A stretch of 54,484 nucleotides of DNA from Escherichia coli (GCF_003334355.1 NZ_QOWP01000027.1); one strand, 5' to 3'; shown: positions 8,521 to 42,682, counted from the stretch's first letter. Notes: generated by a model not told the origin, from the letters alone. Made by a program: numbers and translations.

Positions 8521-9018
8521 ATGTCTGAATATCGTCGTTATTACATCAAGGGGGGAACCTGGTTTTTCACGGTGAATTTACGCCATCGTCGAAGCCAACT
8601 CTTGACCACCCAGTACCAGATGCTCCGTAACGCCATTATTAAAGTTAAGCGAGACAGGCCTTTTGAAATCAACGCCTGGGTCGTTTTGCCAGAGCATATG
8701 CATTGCATATGGACATTACCTGAAGGCGATGATGATTTTTCCTCTCGCTGGCGGGAAATTAAAAAGCAATTTACCCATGCTTGTGGATTGAAAAATATCT
8801 GGCAACCACGTTTTTGGGAGCACACCATCCGCAATACCAAAGATTATAGGCATCATGTTGATTATATTTATATAAATCCAGTAAAGCATGGTTGGGTAAA
8901 GCAAGTGAGTGATTGGCCATTCTCAACGTTCCATCGCGATGTCGCGCGAGGGTTATATCCCATCGATTGGGCGGGGGACGTAACGGATATAAATGCTGGC
9001 GAGCGTATCATTTTATAA
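8521..9018 (+). CDS. yafM: REP-associated tyrosine transposase (RAYT, IS200/IS605-like HUH)
   Basis: 165-aa ORF, HUH motif (…LPEHMHCIWTLP…) and C-terminal Tyr region (DYIYINPVKHGW); flanked on both sides by REP clusters; AGGAG RBS. Confidence 0.85.
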   Translation: MSEYRRYYIKGGTWFFTVNLRHRRSQLLTTQYQMLRNAIIKVKRDRPFEINAWVVLPEHMHCIWTLPEGDDDFSSRWREIKKQFTHACGLKNIWQPRFWEHTIRNTKDYRHHVDYIYINPVKHGWVKQVSDWPFSTFHRDVARGLYPIDWAGDVTDINAGERIIL

Positions 9019-37381: not shown

Positions 37382-38359
37382 ATGCAGGTCGGACTTACAT
37401 CTTCATCACTCGCCACCGGCGGCGCGCATAGCGCTGCGGTATCGTCGTCAACCGTTGCGCCCACTCAGGCGGTGCGGCAAAAACTCCCGGCGACGGCGAG
37501 TGAATATCCGGCCTCGCCGCTGATTACCACTCGCCCGCAGCGTTACAGCGTGCAGCTTAACGACCAGCTCACCACGTTGCAGCAGGCGGATCATTATCTC
37601 GGGCAACTGGAGCAGCAGTTGCTCGATTATCGTCATAGCCAGCGTAAGGGCGGGCAGGCGCAGAGTACGGCGCTGATGCAGATGCTGGACAAACGCACCG
37701 CGCTTTCCGGCGGCGCGGTGGACCGCCAGTTGCAGCCAGTGTTGCAGGGTGAAGCGCGGGTGACTTTTCACTCGCCGGATATGGCGAATCTGGTACACAA
37801 TCCCACGCCGGGAACGCGGATGTTCAGCGTCTCTGACGGGCGGCAGACTCAGCTTTCGGCGGTGATGCTGTCTGAGGATGACAGCGCCGGGCAGTATCAG
37901 ACGCGGCTGACCAACGCCCTGCGCCGCGTGGGCGTTCAGTTGCATCAGCAAGCGGATGGCATCAGTTTCTCCACCACTGAAAAACAGTGGCCTGATATCG
38001 AGCGCACCTTAAGCGTGCGCACCGATGGCGATAAGTCGGCGTTTATGCCGCTAAAAACCTTTGCCGAACCATCACAGGTGGAGCGCTTAGCGCAAAGCCT
38101 GCAACAGGGCGGGGCGGGGATTTCTCAAATGCTGGAAAGCATTAATCAGCAGCGCGCGCAGATGGCGGTGCAGCAGGAAAAGGCGCGGCAGTTGATCGAC
38201 GGCATGTCGCGCTTCCCGCAAACGGAAAACGCGGTGCAGGCGTCGGAAAACCTCGGCGGCGTGCTCGATAGCGCCAATCATAACTATCAGGTGTTATTGC
38301 AGGCGGTGAACGGTCAGGCGCGAATTTCCAGCCAGACGGTGAGGAATTTATTGGGGTAA
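37382..38359 (+). CDS. lafW: Flag-2-specific protein, possible additional hook-associated/flagellin-like protein
   Basis: 325 aa; C-terminus (…NLGGVLDSANHNYQVLLQAVNGQARISSQTVRNLLG) resembles the conserved C-terminal helix of axial flagellar proteins; function uncertain. Confidence 0.6.
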   Translation: MQVGLTSSSLATGGAHSAAVSSSTVAPTQAVRQKLPATASEYPASPLITTRPQRYSVQLNDQLTTLQQADHYLGQLEQQLLDYRHSQRKGGQAQSTALMQMLDKRTALSGGAVDRQLQPVLQGEARVTFHSPDMANLVHNPTPGTRMFSVSDGRQTQLSAVMLSEDDSAGQYQTRLTNALRRVGVQLHQQADGISFSTTEKQWPDIERTLSVRTDGDKSAFMPLKTFAEPSQVERLAQSLQQGGAGISQMLESINQQRAQMAVQQEKARQLIDGMSRFPQTENAVQASENLGGVLDSANHNYQVLLQAVNGQARISSQTVRNLLG

Positions 38360-38417: not shown

Positions 38418-39260
38418 TCAGCATTTTTGCACAGTATTTAACAACTTCTCTAAATTCTGATACATCGCGCTATTAATATCGCTGTTCTGCCAGCCTTCCA
38501 CATTAAAAGTTAATTGCCAGCTACCATTGCACTGGTTGCGCAGAACAATATCACTTTCCAGTCGGTTACGAACATATTTATAATAGGTTGTCATTGTCAT
38601 ATTATGCGCTGACAATAAATTATCGAGTTTGTCTTTCCCTGGTGCGAGGGTTTGTGACAGTAACGGTACGGAACTATTTTCTTTTCCAGAACTAAGGTGA
38701 AATATTTTTATTCTTGGACTGTTAATTGACTCTTTTACCAGTTGCGGGGCATCAGGTGTACTTTTCAAGTGTGAATGCCCCACGGTCGAGCCAATAAATA
38801 TAACAACCGCGGTCAAGGCTAACCCCATCAGTCCTTTATGTTTTTTTCTAACAGGCACAGGCGGTGTTGTCGAAGATATCTCTTCTGGCACAATTTCCTG
38901 TATCTGGTTGGTAATAATCAGCGCTTCCGCTGGCGATGACTCCGGCAAAGACACATACTCTTTATTGCACAGGTAACCTTTTTTCGGGATGGTTTTAATA
39001 ATGTTCTGTTGTTTGCCATCATCGTCGATAGCAACGCGCAACGCATGGATTGCCGTCGGCAGGCTGTTACCGCCGACAATGCGGTTCTTCCATACTTCGG
39101 CACATAAATAAGATCGCGATAAAACCACATCGGCATTTTTTGCTAATGTTTCCAGCAAAATAAAATGGTATTCGCCGAGACGACGTGTTTCACCCGTTTC
39201 GCAATGTATTAAGGCATTAAGCGACGGGTCCATCCGCCAGTTGTTGATAATAATACTCAT
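38418..39260 (-). CDS. lafZ: ToxR/CadC-like membrane-anchored winged-helix transcriptional regulator
   Basis: 280 aa; N-terminal OmpR/PhoB-type DNA-binding region, one predicted TM helix (GLMGLALTAVVIFIGSTVG), C-terminal periplasmic domain; noticeably AT-rich; divergent from lafA. Confidence 0.75.
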   Translation of the reverse strand: MSIIINNWRMDPSLNALIHCETGETRRLGEYHFILLETLAKNADVVLSRSYLCAEVWKNRIVGGNSLPTAIHALRVAIDDDGKQQNIIKTIPKKGYLCNKEYVSLPESSPAEALIITNQIQEIVPEEISSTTPPVPVRKKHKGLMGLALTAVVIFIGSTVGHSHLKSTPDAPQLVKESINSPRIKIFHLSSGKENSSVPLLSQTLAPGKDKLDNLLSAHNMTMTTYYKYVRNRLESDIVLRNQCNGSWQLTFNVEGWQNSDINSAMYQNLEKLLNTVQKC

Positions 39261-39745
39261 AGTTGAGTTTACCTTAGCAAGGGATAAATGTTACCTGATA
39301 GTGCTTTGCATAAAGCACAGTCTTATACGTCCCTGAGAAGATGATTTTTCTGCGTGATAATTAATATTTTATGGTAATAGGATTATTCTTAATCACTATA
39401 TGGCGTGGAAATGTAACGAAATGACAGGATAGGTACAATAGCCAAATGTGTACTATTTGCAACGCAATGTAAATTTTGGCATCAGTACATTGAGAAGAAA
39501 ACGCGTTAATTGATGGTAATCTTAACTATATCAAGCGTTTGATAAAGACATATTTTGATACCTGGCCATGTGGCAGATATTGCTAATAATCCTTTTATCT
39601 GAATTTAAACTCTGCTTTTTTTAGCTAAAAGTGGCATCAGATAAACCGCGCTGAAATTTTTTTAACGGCGGTTTTAAGTTTGCTCCCGAGGTGTCGTTTT
39701 TACAGGGTATCGAAACGAAAACGATTAATCCCAAGGAGCAGTATC

Positions 39746-40660
39746 ATGTTATCTATTAACACCAATAACGCCTCAATGGCCGCCGTTAATGCAATCAGCA
39801 AAAGCAGCTCTTCTCTGTCTACATCTATGGAACGCCTGGCGACAGGTAACCGGATTAACTCTTCTGCCGATGACGCAGCGGGCAAACAAATTGCTAACCG
39901 TCTGACTGCACAGTCAAGCGGTATGGGCGTGGCGCTGAGCAATATCAATGATGCCACCGCGATGCTGCAAACCGCCGACAGCATGTTCGATGAAATGTCT
40001 GACGTGCTGGGTCGTATGAAAGACCTGTCAACTCAGGCAGCGAACGGCACCTACAGCGACGACGACCTGCAGGCGATGCAGGACGAATACGACGAACTGG
40101 GTCAGCAGATGTCTGACATGCTGCAAAACACCACCTACGGCGGCACCAACCTGTTCGGTGTTTCCGGCACCAGCAACACCGGTACTGACGGCCTGTTCCA
40201 GAGCGCGGTAACCTTCCAGGTGGGCGCGGAATCTTCCGACACCATGACCGTGAACATTTCAAGCCAACTGAATACCCTGGTGACGGATCTTTCTGCTATC
40301 AGCAACTCCTTCAGTGCGGATCAGGCAGACACCACGGGTACTGCAGGCGTGTCTGGCGGTACTGAGCTGACTGCGTCTGGCTCGGCTAACCAGATGATTA
40401 CCAGCATTTCTACCGCGATGGATGACGTTTCTCAGATTCAGTCCAAGCTGGGTGCGTCTATTAACCGTCTGAACGACACTGCCAACAACCTGACCAGCAT
40501 GCAGGACAACACCGAAGTTGCTATCGGTAACATCATGGATACCGACTACGCGACGGAAGCGTCCAACATGACCAAACAGCAGGTGCTGATGCAGACCGGC
40601 ATCACCATGCTGAAACAGTCCAACAGCATGTCCAGCATGGTTTCCAGCCTGCTGCAGTAA
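39746..40660 (+). CDS. lafA: Lateral flagellin
   Basis: 304 aa from ATG 39746 with AAGGAG RBS; flagellin N-terminal domain (MLSINTNNASMAAVNAISK…LATGNRINSSADDAAGKQIANRLT…) and C-terminal domain (…VLMQTGITMLKQSNSMSSMVSSLLQ); short Ser/Thr/Gly-rich central region. Confidence 0.93.
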   Translation: MLSINTNNASMAAVNAISKSSSSLSTSMERLATGNRINSSADDAAGKQIANRLTAQSSGMGVALSNINDATAMLQTADSMFDEMSDVLGRMKDLSTQAANGTYSDDDLQAMQDEYDELGQQMSDMLQNTTYGGTNLFGVSGTSNTGTDGLFQSAVTFQVGAESSDTMTVNISSQLNTLVTDLSAISNSFSADQADTTGTAGVSGGTELTASGSANQMITSISTAMDDVSQIQSKLGASINRLNDTANNLTSMQDNTEVAIGNIMDTDYATEASNMTKQQVLMQTGITMLKQSNSMSSMVSSLLQ

Positions 40661-40669
40661 TGGCGGACT

Positions 40670-40773
<104 letters not shown>

Positions 40774-40791
40774 TGCGTTTGTCATCAGTCT

Positions 40792-40824
40792 CAACACCGC
40801 CTGCGGGCGGTGTTGTGCTTTCTG
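40792..40824 (+). terminator. Candidate intrinsic terminator after lafA
   Basis: Perfect 10-bp GC-rich inverted repeat caacaccgcc-tgcg-ggcggtgttg followed by tgctttctg. Confidence 0.4.
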
Positions 40825-40903
40825 CGGCAGGCGTTTTTCCGCTAAAGCGGAAGCGTTCTTTCCGCCCATTTTTCAATCTATTGATTCTTCACATAAAAAA
40901 TAT

Positions 40904-40918
40904 TGGCACGCCTTTTGC
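40904..40918 (+). promoter_or_regulatory. Candidate sigma-54 (-24/-12) promoter for lafB operon
   Basis: TGGCACgccttTTGCc: exact TGGCAC-N5-TTGC spacing, about 33 nt upstream of lafB ATG. Confidence 0.55.
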
Positions 40919-40950
40919 CAATAACCTGACATCGTTATTCGGAGTCATCA

Positions 40951-42267
40951 ATGATCAACCCAAGAACCATTGCGCAAGAAATCGCCTATGCCGACGTTGC
41001 CACTCAGGCGGCAAACTTGCAGGAAAAGCAAACGGAGCTGGATGCTGAAAGCAGCGGCCTGGACTCGCTCAGCTCAGCGTTGAGCGATTTCCAGAGCGCC
41101 GTTGACGCGCTGAACAGCGATACCGACGGCCCGGTGACTTTTGCCGCCACCAGCAATAATGACTCGGCGACCGTTTCCGCCAATTCCCAGGCGCAGGCGG
41201 GAAGCTACTCATTTTTCGTTGAGCAACTGGCGCAGGGGCAGCAGACCACATTCAGTATGGGCGACGACGCCTTTTCCGCCACCGGCACCTTCGAACTGAC
41301 GATGGGCGACAGCACCATGGATATCGATCTGTCGGCGGCAGATCAGAACGGTGACGGCGATGGTTTTATCGACGCCAGCGAGCTGGTGAATGCGATTAAC
41401 GACTCCGATGACAATCCAGGCGTGTCGGCGGCACTGGTAAAAACCGACGGCACCACCACGATTATGCTCACCTCCGATAGCACCGGGGCGCAGAGCGCGT
41501 TTTCGGTGAGCGTAACGGGGCATGATGCCAGCAACGATAGCACCAGCGCGCCCGTTGCCACGGATGTTTCCTCCGCTCAGGACGCGATTATTCATCTCGG
41601 TAGCGCCACAGGGCCTGCGATCACCAACAGCAGCAATACATTTGATGATGTGATCCCCGGCGTCACCATGACTTTTACCGAAGTCAGCGATTCTGACAGC
41701 GATCTCACCACCTTTAATATCAGCGAAGATTCCAGCGCCAGCCAGGAGAAAGTACAGACCTTTGTCGATGCCTATAACACCTTGATTGATACGGTTGATT
41801 CGCTGACCACTCACGGTGATGACAGTACCAGCGCCGGGGTATTTGCAGGCGACGCCGGGCTCAGTTCACTGGCGAACCAGCTCGATGACATCGCCCATGC
41901 CAGCTACAACGGCGTGTCGATTGTTGACTATGGCATCACCCTCGATTCTCACGGCCACTTACAGATTGACTCCGACCAGTTCAACGACGAAATGGCGAAA
42001 AATCCTGACGGTCTGACCTCTATTTTCGTTGGCGACAACAGCATGGTGGCGCAGATGGACGACCTGATTAACACCTACACGGACTCCAGCAACGGCATCA
42101 TCACCCTGCGCCAGCAGAACATTGACGATCAGATGAGCAAAATTCAGGACGAAGGCGATCAGCTTACCGATACCTATAACGCCAACTACGACCGTTATCT
42201 GGAGGAGTACACCAACACGCTGGTTGAGGTGTACACCATGAAAGCCAGCATGGCGGCATTCGCGTAA
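40951..42267 (+). CDS. lafB: Flagellar filament cap protein, FliD homologue
   Basis: 438 aa; FliD-like N-terminal coiled coil and C-terminal domain; ATG 40951. Confidence 0.9.
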   Translation: MINPRTIAQEIAYADVATQAANLQEKQTELDAESSGLDSLSSALSDFQSAVDALNSDTDGPVTFAATSNNDSATVSANSQAQAGSYSFFVEQLAQGQQTTFSMGDDAFSATGTFELTMGDSTMDIDLSAADQNGDGDGFIDASELVNAINDSDDNPGVSAALVKTDGTTTIMLTSDSTGAQSAFSVSVTGHDASNDSTSAPVATDVSSAQDAIIHLGSATGPAITNSSNTFDDVIPGVTMTFTEVSDSDSDLTTFNISEDSSASQEKVQTFVDAYNTLIDTVDSLTTHGDDSTSAGVFAGDAGLSSLANQLDDIAHASYNGVSIVDYGITLDSHGHLQIDSDQFNDEMAKNPDGLTSIFVGDNSMVAQMDDLINTYTDSSNGIITLRQQNIDDQMSKIQDEGDQLTDTYNANYDRYLEEYTNTLVEVYTMKASMAAFA

Positions 42268-42289: not shown

Positions 42290-42682
42290 ATGTACCAAGT
42301 ACAGGATGGCTATTCGCAATATAAAGAGATCGATCTCGCGGCGCGTACTGCGGCGGCATCGCCTCTGGAACTGGTGCTGGTGCTGTTTTCTGGCCTGATG
42401 GACGAGCTGGAACGCGCCAAAAGCCATATTGAAGGGCGGCGTTTCGAGAAGAAAGCCCAGAGCATCAATAAATGCATCGACATTCTCAATGCGCTCACCA
42501 GTTCGTTGGAGTTTGAAACCGGCGGCGAGCTGGTGGTCAACCTTTCGCGCCTCTATGACCACTGCGTTTACCGATTGTATGAGGCCAGCGGCGAACTGTC
42601 GGCAGAGAAAATCGATGAAGTGATGCTGATCTTAAGCAACCTGCGCGAAGGCTGGGAAGGGCTTTCGGGCAAGCTGGGTTAA
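42290..42682 (+). CDS. lafC: Flagellin-specific chaperone, FliS homologue
   Basis: 130 aa with FliS-like four-helix core (…ELVLVLFSGLMDELERAKSHIE…CIDILNALTSSLEFETGGELVVNLSRLYDHCVYRL…). Confidence 0.9.
   Translation: MYQVQDGYSQYKEIDLAARTAAASPLELVLVLFSGLMDELERAKSHIEGRRFEKKAQSINKCIDILNALTSSLEFETGGELVVNLSRLYDHCVYRLYEASGELSAEKIDEVMLILSNLREGWEGLSGKLG

What the first reader, a model, noticed from the sequence alone, without database searches (positions are those of the whole stretch)
39746..40660. Compact lateral flagellin with Ser/Thr/Gly-rich central segment
LafA is only 304 aa (no large D2/D3 hypervariable domain). Its central region (…SGTSNTGTDGLFQSAVTFQVGAESSDTMTVNISSQLNTLVTDLSAISNSFSADQADTTGTAGVSGGTELTASGSANQMITSISTAMDD…) is rich in Ser and Thr, the typical acceptor landscape for O-linked flagellin glycosylation, consistent with the transferase cassette in the same locus.
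Basis: inference. Interest (0 to 1): 0.4.

Follow-up and report, generated by a model that had tools for sequence, protein, structure and literature searches.

The report
Known E. coli lateral flagellin LafA
This is the already-annotated filament protein (LafA) of the second, "lateral-type" flagellar system that about a quarter of E. coli strains carry; the idea that it is sugar-modified is plausible and already published as a prediction, but its Ser/Thr richness is not evidence for it.

Summary
The ORF is real and exactly as described: window 39746-40660 (+), 304 aa, flagellin N and C domains, no outer D2/D3 domain. The window is 100% identical to E. coli PSS-12, where the gene is annotated lafA (WP_000949083.1). 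It matches NCBIfam's LafA model end to end (667 bits, cutoff 440) and lies in an intact Flag-2 locus next to dinB. It is single-copy in 1,278 of 5,426 complete E. coli genomes.

LafA is unusually Ser/Thr-rich (26%, about the 98th percentile of compact flagellins), but this is protein-wide. The buried N-terminal helix is as rich as the centre (Fisher p=0.03 for the centre). A structural model shows the "central segment" is mostly ordinary D1 fold. Only two short inserted loops (aa 138-148 and 196-215) are truly Ser/Thr/Gly-rich.

The transferase cassette exists: a GT2 + CDP-glycerol-phosphotransferase fusion, a TagD homologue and a weak FliB-like gene. It occurs in the same number of genomes as lafA. 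Glycosylation from these genes was already predicted in 2020 and remains untested, and some lateral flagellins are not glycosylated.

New here: the LafA protein is invariant across diverged E. coli alleles (37-41 synonymous, 0 non-synonymous changes), and there is no lysine in the exposed region. Verdict: ordinary and already known.

The parts
39746..40660 (+). lafA coding sequence, 304 aa, lateral (Flag-2) flagellin
   Evidence: ORF and translation. NCBIfam NF033376 lat_flg_LafA_1 at 667 bits against a cutoff of 440, covering 1-304 of 304. Pfam Flagellin_N and Flagellin_C. RefSeq annotation WP_000949083.1.
39734..39738 (+). Shine-Dalgarno AGGAG, 7 nt before the ATG
   Evidence: Read directly from the sequence. 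Invariant in three diverged strains.
39261..39745 (+). lafZ-lafA intergenic region, AT-rich and much more conserved than synonymous sites. It contains a weak sigma-28-like candidate, TTAAGTTT-N11-GTCGTTTT, at 39674-39700 (inference only).
   Evidence: Divergence is 2.7-4.7% overall and 1.3-1.7% in the first 230 bp, against dS of about 0.20 in lafA. A strict sigma-28 consensus search found nothing here.
40157..40189 (+). Codons 138-148 (GVSGTSNTGTD): Ser/Thr/Gly-rich loop insertion 1 between helix ND1b and the D1 beta-hairpin
   Evidence: Gap relative to Shewanella FlaA and Vibrio flagellins. Coil in the model. Variable among orthologues. Site of larger insertions in Citrobacter variants P0116 and P0118.
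40208..40252 (+). Codons 155-169: the canonical D1 beta-hairpin (VTFQVGAESSDTMTV)
   Evidence: Strands 155-158 and 166-169 in the model. FQVG motif aligned to solved flagellins. 83-90% conserved among orthologues.
40259..40327 (+). Codons 172-194: short helix after the hairpin, shared with other compact flagellins
   Evidence: Helices 172-185 and 187-194 in the model. Aligns to Shewanella FlaA 162-183, which carries glycosylated Ser and methylated Lys.
40331..40390 (+). Codons 196-215 (TTGTAGVSGGTELTASGSAN): Ser/Thr/Gly-rich loop insertion 2, at the position where larger flagellins carry D2/D3
   Evidence: Coil with the lowest pLDDT within D1, 63-67. Most variable stretch with indels among orthologues. 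Second insertion site in the Citrobacter long variants. Absent from Shewanella FlaA.
40657..40747 (.). REP-type palindromic elements just after the lafA stop codon
   Evidence: Rfam ES036 at 45.8 bits (gathering 37.6) and a sub-threshold naRNA4 hit. Every E. coli genome matches this spacer many times.
40792..40815 (+). GC-rich hairpin, terminator-like, downstream of lafA
   Evidence: Consensus scan only.
40951..42267 (+). lafB (FliD-type filament cap)
   Evidence: NCBIfam FliD hits and RefSeq annotation.
42290..42682 (+). lafC (FliS-type flagellin export chaperone)
   Evidence: TIGR00208 at 79 bits against a cutoff of 53.75.
22324..22719 (+). TagD-like glycerol-3-phosphate cytidylyltransferase (VR1)
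   Evidence: Full-length match to B. subtilis TagD, PDB 1COZ, E=4e-33. TIGR01518 E=5e-33, scoring 113.8 bits against a cutoff of 165.4, so below NCBIfam's curated cutoff.
22837..25281 (-). 814-aa multidomain transferase (VR1): N-terminal GT2 domain, an unassigned middle part, and a C-terminal CDP-glycerol glycerophosphotransferase-family domain
   Evidence: Pfam GT2 E=2.5e-17 and weak Glyphos_transf E=0.011. The C-terminal 339 aa has stand-alone homologues at 45-66% identity that carry PF04464 and the NCBI name 'CDP-glycerol glycerophosphotransferase family protein'.
25460..26389 (-). LafV, putative FliB-like lysine-N-methylase (VR1)
   Evidence: NF038110 E=3.9e-10, but 39.8 bits against a cutoff of 85. 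No Pfam match. RefSeq names it lysine-N-methylase in PSS-12 and hypothetical protein in other strains.
37382..38359 (+). lafW, hypothetical protein. It is not a Maf-type glycosyltransferase.
   Evidence: No NCBIfam or Pfam family.
38418..39260 (-). lafZ, CadC/OmpR-type winged-helix regulator divergent from lafA. De Maayer et al. describe it as transmembrane.
   Evidence: Weak CadC and OmpR-family DNA-binding hits. RefSeq names it 'transcriptional regulator'. The transmembrane description comes from PMC6993521; no membrane-topology prediction was run here.

Best explanation
lafA encodes the filament subunit of the E. coli Flag-2 (lateral-type) flagellum. It is a minimal D0/D1-only flagellin. 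The N- and C-terminal helices form the conserved filament core. The 'central segment' supplies the rest of D1 (beta-hairpin plus a short helix) and two short Ser/Thr/Gly-rich loops (aa 138-148 and 196-215), which should lie on the filament surface where larger flagellins carry D2/D3.

By analogy with other flagellar systems, it would be exported through the Flag-2 type III apparatus with LafC (FliS-like) as chaperone and polymerised under the LafB (FliD-like) cap. This step is inferred.

If it is modified, the most likely chemistry is cytoplasmic O-glycosylation of exposed Ser/Thr by the GT2 domain of the 814-aa VR1 enzyme. The sugar would then be capped with phosphodiester-linked glycerol, transferred from CDP-glycerol (made by the adjacent TagD homologue) by the enzyme's C-terminal TagB/F-like domain. 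This matches the logic of the P. aeruginosa FgtA and C. difficile CD0240/CD0242/CD0244 flagellin pathways. Candidate sites are T102/S104, S153, T180, S190, T196/T197 and the two loops.

Shown here: gene identity, fold class, composition, genomic linkage, and selection. Inferred: export route, surface exposure, and any modification.
For: Identity:
- NCBIfam LafA model at full length, 667 bits against a cutoff of 440.
- Pfam N and C domains.
- 100% identical to annotated lafA in E. coli PSS-12, followed by fliD and fliS homologues in a locus with no pseudogene flags.

Fold:
- AlphaFold model with D1 pLDDT of 80-95.
- Best Foldseek and sequence matches are D0/D1-only filaments: Shewanella FlaA/FlaB and B. 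subtilis Hag.

Loops:
- They are gaps relative to Shewanella and Vibrio flagellins.
- They are variable among orthologues.
- They are insertion hotspots in 361-366-aa Citrobacter variants.

Functional constraint:
- 37-41 synonymous and 0 non-synonymous differences between diverged alleles.
- Lowest dN/dS in the locus.

Modification route:
- GT2 domain.
- PF04464-family C-terminal domain.
- TagD homologue.
- The VR1 block is found in 1,278 genomes, the same number as lafA.
- Published analogy of a GT + phosphotransferase fusion (FgtA) and the CDP-donor logic.
- Shewanella FlaB glyco-serines S105 and S180 align to LafA S104 and S190.
- The Plesiomonas LafA glycopeptide maps to the 99-104 loop.
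Against: - No experimental data exist for E. coli LafA modification.
- LafA protein was not detectable in ST131 strain EC958 in LB broth or soft agar at 28 or 37 C, so even expression conditions are unknown.
- Aeromonas AH-1 lateral flagellins are unmodified, so lateral flagellins need not be glycosylated.
- The Glyphos_transf match of the E. coli protein itself is weak (E=0.011). The assignment rests on homologues.
- One strain examined (DETEC-E1070) has the GT but no adjacent TagD gene.
- Surface exposure of the loops is inferred from a monomer model, not from a filament structure.
Confidence: 0.9

Rival explanations
1. LafA is an unmodified flagellin. Its Ser/Thr richness is simply the composition of a small, acidic, type-III-exported coiled-coil protein, and the VR1 enzymes act on another substrate (for example a cell-envelope glycan) or are inactive cargo.
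For: - The Ser/Thr excess is protein-wide and includes buried helices.
- Aeromonas AH-1 LafA1 and LafA2 have exactly the predicted masses.
- VR1 is described as a cargo-integration hotspot.
- VR1 genes evolve faster than the structural genes, with dN/dS of 0.09-0.20.
- TagD is absent next to the GT in one strain.
Against: - The VR1 block sits inside the flagellar locus and is present in the same number of genomes as lafA: 1,278.
- It is still under purifying selection, with dN/dS well below 1.
- The same domain combination modifies flagellin in P. aeruginosa and C. difficile.
- The closest solved structural relative, Shewanella FlaB, is glycosylated at aligned positions.
Confidence: 0.4
2. The gene is a silent evolutionary relic: Flag-2 is cryptic in E. 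coli, and LafA is never made into a filament.
For: - The EC958 lafA mutant has no motility phenotype and no LafA was seen on western blot.
- By recollection of Ren et al. 2005, which was not held in the library, the prototype strain 042 carries a frameshift in lfgC. The EC958 paper supports this only indirectly, noting an intact lfgC in EC958 'compared to O42'.
- About three quarters of E. coli genomes have lost the locus.
- Some database entries have in-frame deletions that cut D1 helices.
Against: - With dS of about 0.2 and no amino-acid change in LafA, and dN/dS of 0.008-0.07 for the other structural genes, selection on the proteins is ongoing and strong.
- The upstream regulatory region is also constrained.
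- All Flag-2 genes are intact in this strain.
- Flag-2 is reported as expressed at low temperature in Yersinia and needed for swarming in Plesiomonas.
Confidence: 0.1

Closest known systems
Lateral flagellin LafA of the enterobacterial Flag-2 locus (NCBIfam NF033376 lat_flg_LafA_1; E. coli 042 / Citrobacter rodentium type)
   Same: Same family, length, domain order and gene neighbourhood (lafZ, then lafA-lafB-lafC, ending with lafU next to dinB). The protein is identical to RefSeq WP_000949083.1.
   Different: Nothing: this is a member, not a variant.
Shewanella oneidensis FlaA/FlaB (PDB 9OXJ, 9OXK, 9LAH), D0/D1-only flagellins that are O-glycosylated and Lys-methylated
   Same: Closest solved fold, with 33-34% identity. 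Modified Ser S105 and S180 align to LafA S104 and S190, and the others align next to Ser/Thr.
   Different: - LafA is about 30 aa longer through two Ser/Thr/Gly loops.
- LafA has Thr/Ser/Asn where FlaB has methylated lysines.
- Shewanella uses a nonulosonic acid, and Maf-family proteins are suspected (not shown) to take part. The E. coli locus has a GT2/TagB-type enzyme and no Maf.
P. aeruginosa PAO1 b-type flagellin glycosylation (FgtA/PA1091) and the C. difficile Type A pathway (CD0240-CD0244)
   Same: Both combine a GT-A-type glycosyltransferase, a cytidylyltransferase that makes a CDP-activated donor, and a TagB/F-like phosphotransferase that caps the sugar through a phosphodiester. In FgtA the GT and phosphotransferase are fused, as in the E. 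coli enzyme (compared).
   Different: - The E. coli cytidylyltransferase is a close TagD homologue, which suggests CDP-glycerol rather than CDP-threonine.
- There are no CD0241- or CD0243-like genes.
- Sequence similarity to FgtA itself was not tested here.
- No chemistry is known for E. coli.
Aeromonas and Plesiomonas lateral flagellins (LafA, 275 aa in Plesiomonas, about 30 kDa in Aeromonas)
   Same: Compact lateral flagellins in a laf cluster. Glycosylated in Plesiomonas, and reported as glycosylated in A. hydrophila AH-3 by work cited in the AH-1 paper.
   Different: They use legionaminic or pseudaminic acids, with a Maf-5(-like) gene next to lafA in Plesiomonas. E. coli LafW has no Maf domain. 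AH-1 LafA is not glycosylated at all.

Membership tests
Lateral flagellin LafA, type 1 (NCBIfam NF033376) | Full-length score above the curated cutoff of 440 bits | tested here: met
   667.3 bits, E=2.6e-201, covering 1-304 of 304.
Lateral flagellin LafA, type 1 (NCBIfam NF033376) | Flagellin_N and Flagellin_C helical domains | tested here: met
   PF00669 at 4-138 (E=1e-34) and PF00700 at 219-303 (E=2e-21).
Lateral flagellin LafA, type 1 (NCBIfam NF033376) | Located in a lateral/Flag-2 flagellar cluster, upstream of the FliD-like cap and FliS-like chaperone | tested here: met
   lafB at 40951-42267 and lafC at 42290-42682, with the complete three-cluster Flag-2 locus between yafL/rayT and dinB.
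Lateral flagellin LafA, type 1 (NCBIfam NF033376) | Polymerises into the lateral flagellar filament | not testable with these tools
   Needs purification of filaments. LafA was not detected in EC958 under lab conditions.
Outer-domain-less (D0/D1-only) flagellins | No folded domain between ND1 and CD1; structure superposes on D0/D1-only filament subunits | tested here: met
   Only 80 residues lie between the Pfam domains. The model shows a hairpin, a short helix and two loops. The top Foldseek hits are the 272-aa Shewanella FlaA/FlaB, with Hag and Kurthia lower down.
O-glycosylated flagellins | Dedicated glycosyltransferase genetically linked to the flagellin | tested here: met
   A GT2-containing 814-aa enzyme lies in VR1 of the same locus. 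The VR1 block is present at 80% coverage or more in 1,278 genomes, and lafA is found in 1,278. Matching counts are not a per-genome test.
O-glycosylated flagellins | Ser/Thr at surface-exposed positions equivalent to experimentally mapped sites | tested here: inconclusive
   S104 and S190 align with Shewanella glyco-serines, and the others align next to Ser/Thr. T102/S104 match the Plesiomonas glycopeptide region. Exposure is inferred from a monomer model, and there is no sequon to test.
O-glycosylated flagellins | Measured mass excess or glycopeptides | not testable with these tools
   Reference masses computed here: 31,668.4 Da, or 31,537.2 Da without Met1.
FliB-type lysine-methylated flagellins | FliB-family lysine-N-methylase encoded nearby | tested here: inconclusive
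   LafV hits NF038110 at E=3.9e-10 but scores 39.8 bits against a cutoff of 85. No Pfam match.
FliB-type lysine-methylated flagellins | Lysines on the exposed part of the flagellin | tested here: not met
   There is no Lys between residues 93 and 233. Positions aligned to Shewanella methyl-lysines are T168, S172 and N176. Most orthologues in other genera do have 1-3 Lys in this stretch.
Maf-dependent (nonulosonic acid) flagellin glycosylation | Maf-family (PF01973-type) transferase adjacent to the flagellin gene | tested here: not met
   LafW, at the equivalent position, has no Pfam or NCBIfam match.

The most novel reading that the evidence does not exclude
E. coli LafA is decorated on its two small Ser/Thr/Gly loops and the ND1a-ND1b loop with an O-linked sugar capped by phosphodiester-linked glycerol. 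This teichoic-acid-like modification would be made by a GT2-TagB fusion enzyme and a TagD homologue. The glycan, not the protein, would be the variable surface: LafA is invariant while the transferase genes evolve about ten times faster than the structural genes. This would be an undescribed flagellin glycan chemistry in Enterobacteriaceae.
Probability: 0.3. Interest if true: 0.5.

Novelty: already known. Interest (0 to 1): 0.2.

Why it matters
As it stands, little: the gene, its family and the glycosylation hypothesis are all in the databases and the literature.

If tested, the Flag-2 system of E. coli is a long-standing puzzle. It is present in about a quarter of strains, including ST131, yet has never been seen working in the lab.

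The strong purifying selection found here argues that the system is used somewhere in nature. The predicted sugar-phosphoglycerol modification gives a concrete, falsifiable target.

There is also a practical point. The whole candidate region lies in a single 142-residue tryptic peptide, so a standard trypsin workflow would miss any modification.

Tried and rejected
- **Maf-type glycosylation route:** LafW, which sits where Aeromonas and Plesiomonas have maf-5, has no Pfam or NCBIfam family. Rejected.
- **Centre as a disordered Ser/Thr/Gly linker:** the model shows a hairpin and a helix, and only two short loops fit that description. Rejected.
- **Hypervariable central antigenic region as in FliC:** within E. 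coli the protein is invariant, although across genera residues 141-150 and 171-225 do vary. Rejected for E. coli.
- **Short "E. coli LafA" database variants (247-280 aa) as natural minimal forms:** they are exact in-frame deletions, and several remove parts of the conserved ND1 helices. They are probably defective alleles or assembly artefacts.
- **Strict sigma-28 consensus search** (TAAAGTTT-N11-GCCGATAA, up to 3 mismatches): no hit upstream of lafA. Only a weak candidate was found by eye.
- **Rfam scan of the flanking intergenic regions:** only REP-derived families were found.
- **Single-sequence searches of the transferase's middle and C-terminal parts** against NCBIfam and the PDB: nothing found. 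The C-terminal domain was resolved only through homologues, and the middle part remains unassigned.
- **Ren et al. 2005:** could not be read because it is not held in the library.

Full report
**Observation**

It runs from ATG 39746 to the stop at 40660 on the + strand and gives 304 aa, with the quoted segment at residues 140-227. A longer TTG-initiated frame starts at 39680. The ATG is preferred because it has an AGGAG Shine-Dalgarno 7 nt upstream and RefSeq uses the same start.

**Identity**

- The protein matches NCBIfam NF033376 (lat_flg_LafA_1) over its whole length at 667 bits, against a curated cutoff of 440.
- It carries Pfam Flagellin_N (4-138) and Flagellin_C (219-303).
- The window is 100% identical to the chromosome of E. 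coli strain PSS-12, where the gene is annotated "lafA, lateral flagellin LafA", WP_000949083.1.
- It lies in the Flag-2 locus: cluster 1 (lfhAB, lfiM-R, lafK, lfiE-J), variable region VR1, cluster 2 (lfgN-L), then lafW, lafZ, lafA-U, ending next to dinB. Every gene is annotated as intact.
- lafA is single-copy in 1,278 of 5,426 complete E. coli genomes.
- Orthologues at 75-92% identity are widespread in Citrobacter, Kluyvera, Scandinavium, Enterobacter and others.

This is a known, curated gene.

**Compactness**

Only 80 residues separate the two Pfam domains. An AlphaFold model built on 40 orthologues has mean pLDDT 75 and 80-95 across D1. The termini are low-confidence, as expected for a flagellin monomer. 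Its elements are:

| Residues | Element |
|---|---|
| 5-32 | helix |
| 40-100 | helix |
| 101-104 | loop |
| 105-128 | helix |
| 129-154 | loop |
| 155-158 / 166-169 | beta-hairpin |
| 172-194 | short helix |
| 195-212 | loop |
| 213-303 | C-terminal helix |

Foldseek and sequence searches put it closest to D0/D1-only filament subunits: Shewanella oneidensis FlaA/FlaB (272 aa), with B. subtilis Hag (304 aa) and Kurthia also matching. "No D2/D3" is therefore correct. It is also ordinary: lateral flagellins are typically this size (Plesiomonas LafA is 275 aa, Aeromonas LafA about 30 kDa), and about half of all flagellins lack outer domains (abstract of PMC11532411).

**Ser/Thr richness**

The numbers:

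- S+T is 26.3% for the whole protein, 35.2% in residues 140-227 and 22.7% elsewhere (Fisher p=0.03).
- The first 30 residues reach 37%. They form the innermost helix of a filament.

Against 72 compact flagellin representatives, LafA is at the 98.6th percentile overall, the 97th for the centre and the 96th for the remainder. Its centre/rest ratio of 1.42 is near the family median of 1.25. The protein as a whole is therefore unusually Ser/Thr-rich, and the centre is not specially so.

The stretches that really are Ser/Thr/Gly-rich are two short loops: aa 138-148 (GVSGTSNTGTD) and aa 196-215 (TTGTAGVSGGTELTASGSAN). Three lines of evidence single them out:

- They are gaps relative to Shewanella and Vibrio flagellins.
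- They are the most variable parts among orthologues, and indels cluster around aa 191-200.
- They are exactly where 361-366-aa Citrobacter variants carry larger insertions.

Loop 2 is at the position where bigger flagellins insert D2/D3.

**Does this imply glycosylation?**

Composition alone does not. Flagellin O-glycosylation has no sequon (general knowledge). A. hydrophila AH-1 lateral flagellins have exactly their predicted masses, while that paper cites earlier work reporting AH-3 lateral flagellin as glycosylated.

The genetic context is more informative. VR1 holds three genes:

1. A full-length homologue of B. subtilis TagD, the glycerol-3-phosphate cytidylyltransferase (PDB 1COZ, E=4e-33).
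2. An 814-aa protein with an N-terminal GT2 domain (E=2.5e-17). Its C-terminal domain has stand-alone relatives at 45-66% identity in other Enterobacterales, and these carry PF04464 and the name "CDP-glycerol glycerophosphotransferase family protein".
3. LafV, a weak FliB-like protein (39.8 bits against a cutoff of 85; no Pfam match).

The VR1 block is present in 1,278 genomes, the same number as lafA.

A GT, a cytidylyltransferase and a TagB/F-like phosphotransferase together make the C. difficile Type A flagellin glycan (GlcNAc-phospho-N-methyl-threonine). In P. aeruginosa PAO1, FgtA carries the GT and phosphotransferase fused in one protein (PMC10714395). By analogy I propose an O-linked sugar capped with phosphoglycerol.

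Shewanella FlaB is the closest solved relative and is glycosylated on five serines. These map to LafA as follows:

| Shewanella FlaB | LafA |
|---|---|
| S105 | S104 (identical) |
| S143 | Q152 (S153 adjacent) |
| S171 | D181 (T180 adjacent) |
| S180 | S190 (identical) |
| S185 | D195 (T196 adjacent) |

All of this is inference. De Maayer et al. 2020 drew the same prediction from the same genes (GT2-1 in 222 strains, TagD in 235, LafV in 342) and stated that it needs experimental confirmation. I found no later experimental work. In ST131 strain EC958, LafA was not detectable by western blot in LB broth or soft agar at 28 or 37 C.

**What the analysis added**

1. *LafA is invariant within E. 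coli.* Alleles differing by 4-4.5% in DNA (PCN033, DETEC-E1070, AR_0104) encode the identical protein: 37-41 synonymous and 0 non-synonymous differences. One further allele has N187S only.
2. *LafA is the most constrained protein in the locus.* Per-gene estimates from three strains:

   | Gene(s) | dN/dS |
   |---|---|
   | lafA (dS 0.20-0.22) | 0 |
   | core rod, ring, hook, junction, cap and stator proteins | 0.008-0.07 |
   | transferase | 0.13 |
   | TagD | 0.09 |
   | LafV | 0.19-0.20 |

   A few other cluster genes run higher: lfgN and lfgA are about 0.13, and lafD, lafE and lafS reach 0.11-0.57. This argues against a decaying relic. It also contrasts with FliC, whose exposed domain is hypervariable (general knowledge).
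3. *The lafZ-lafA intergenic region is constrained.* The 486-bp region is only 2.7-4.7% diverged, and 1.3-1.7% in its first 230 bp, far below dS. This suggests regulatory DNA.
4. *There is no exposed lysine.* LafA has no lysine between residues 93 and 233. The positions aligned with Shewanella's methylated lysines are T168, S172 and N176. Most orthologues in other genera carry 1-3 lysines in this stretch. The annotated "lysine-N-methylase" therefore has no obvious exposed target in E. coli LafA.
5. *The centre is invisible to trypsin.* With no Lys or Arg between 92 and 234, the whole candidate region is one 142-residue, 14.6-kDa tryptic peptide with 41 Ser/Thr. The reference masses are 31,668.4 Da, or 31,537.2 Da without Met1.

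**Verdict**

The gene call, the size and the presence of the cassette are right. The Ser/Thr argument is weak, most of the "central segment" is ordinary D1 structure, and the glycosylation hypothesis is already published and untested. The finding is a correct reading of a known gene.

The residual interest lies in the untested prediction of a phosphoglycerol-type flagellin glycan, and in the strong selective constraint on a flagellin that nobody has yet seen expressed in E. coli.

Noticed in passing
window 39746-40660 compared with L002, L003, L004, L005: lafA alleles that differ by 31-41 nucleotides encode the same protein: 0 non-synonymous changes in three strains and one N187S change in a fourth. 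LafA has the lowest dN/dS of all Flag-2 genes (dS 0.20-0.22, dN 0).
   Followed up: yes
window 19400-47070 compared with L006 and L007: Most Flag-2 genes show dS of about 0.15-0.35 between strains, against 0.03-0.11 for the flanking core genes gpt, frsA and proB. pepD and dinB are intermediate. The Flag-2 alleles are therefore more deeply diverged than the neighbouring chromosome, which fits old lineages or recombinational import.
   Followed up: partly
window 39261-39745: The AT-rich lafZ-lafA intergenic region is 4-15 times more conserved than synonymous sites: 1.3-1.7% divergence in the first 230 bp. It is probably constrained regulatory DNA. No strict sigma-28 consensus is present, only a weak TTAAGTTT-N11-GTCGTTTT candidate at 39674-39700.
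   Followed up: partly
window 25460-26389 (-) and LafA residues 93-233: The gene annotated as lysine-N-methylase (LafV) is only a sub-threshold FliB match with no Pfam domain. E. coli LafA has no lysine anywhere in its exposed middle. Orthologues in other genera often have lysines at positions 147, 184 and 187. The E. coli enzyme's target is unclear.
   Followed up: partly
window 22837-25281 (-): The 814-aa 'glycosyltransferase' fuses a GT2 domain to a CDP-glycerol glycerophosphotransferase-family domain that is a separate ~350-aa protein in Enterobacter, Pantoea, Cedecea, Buttiauxella and others. A middle part of about 230 aa has no detectable family.
   Followed up: partly
L007:1-3685 (E. 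coli DETEC-E1070): In this strain, two hypothetical genes lie next to the Flag-2 transferase where the window has the TagD-like gene and lfiJ. This suggests a different VR1 or a rearranged or deleted cluster 1.
   Followed up: no
window 40657-40950; L006:18916-19119; L007:18916-19560: REP-type palindromes (Rfam ES036 above threshold) fill the lafA-lafB spacer. Its length varies between strains: 290 bp here, 204 bp in PCN033 and 645 bp in DETEC-E1070. A RayT REP-associated transposase gene lies beside lfhA, at about window 8521-9018.
   Followed up: partly
LafA residues 93-234 (window 40022-40447): There is no Lys or Arg for 142 residues, so trypsin yields a single 14.6-kDa peptide that holds 41 of the 80 Ser/Thr. 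Standard bottom-up proteomics would not see modifications in this region.
   Followed up: yes
proteins P0035, P0047, P0052, P0076, P0092: Database 'E. coli LafA' entries of 247-280 aa are otherwise identical to the window protein but carry clean in-frame deletions. Several remove parts of the ND1 helices. They are likely defective alleles or assembly artefacts.
   Followed up: partly
proteins P0116, P0118 (Citrobacter, 361-366 aa): Some Citrobacter LafA orthologues have gained about 60 residues, split between the same two loop positions that are short Ser/Thr/Gly loops in E. coli. This may be an outer domain beginning to grow on a lateral flagellin.
   Followed up: no
LafA residues 88-97 (window 40007-40036): R90, L94 and Q97 are present in the ND1a helix. 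From memory, these are the residues important for TLR5 recognition in Salmonella FliC, so LafA would be expected to be a TLR5 agonist if exposed as a monomer. This was not tested.
   Followed up: no
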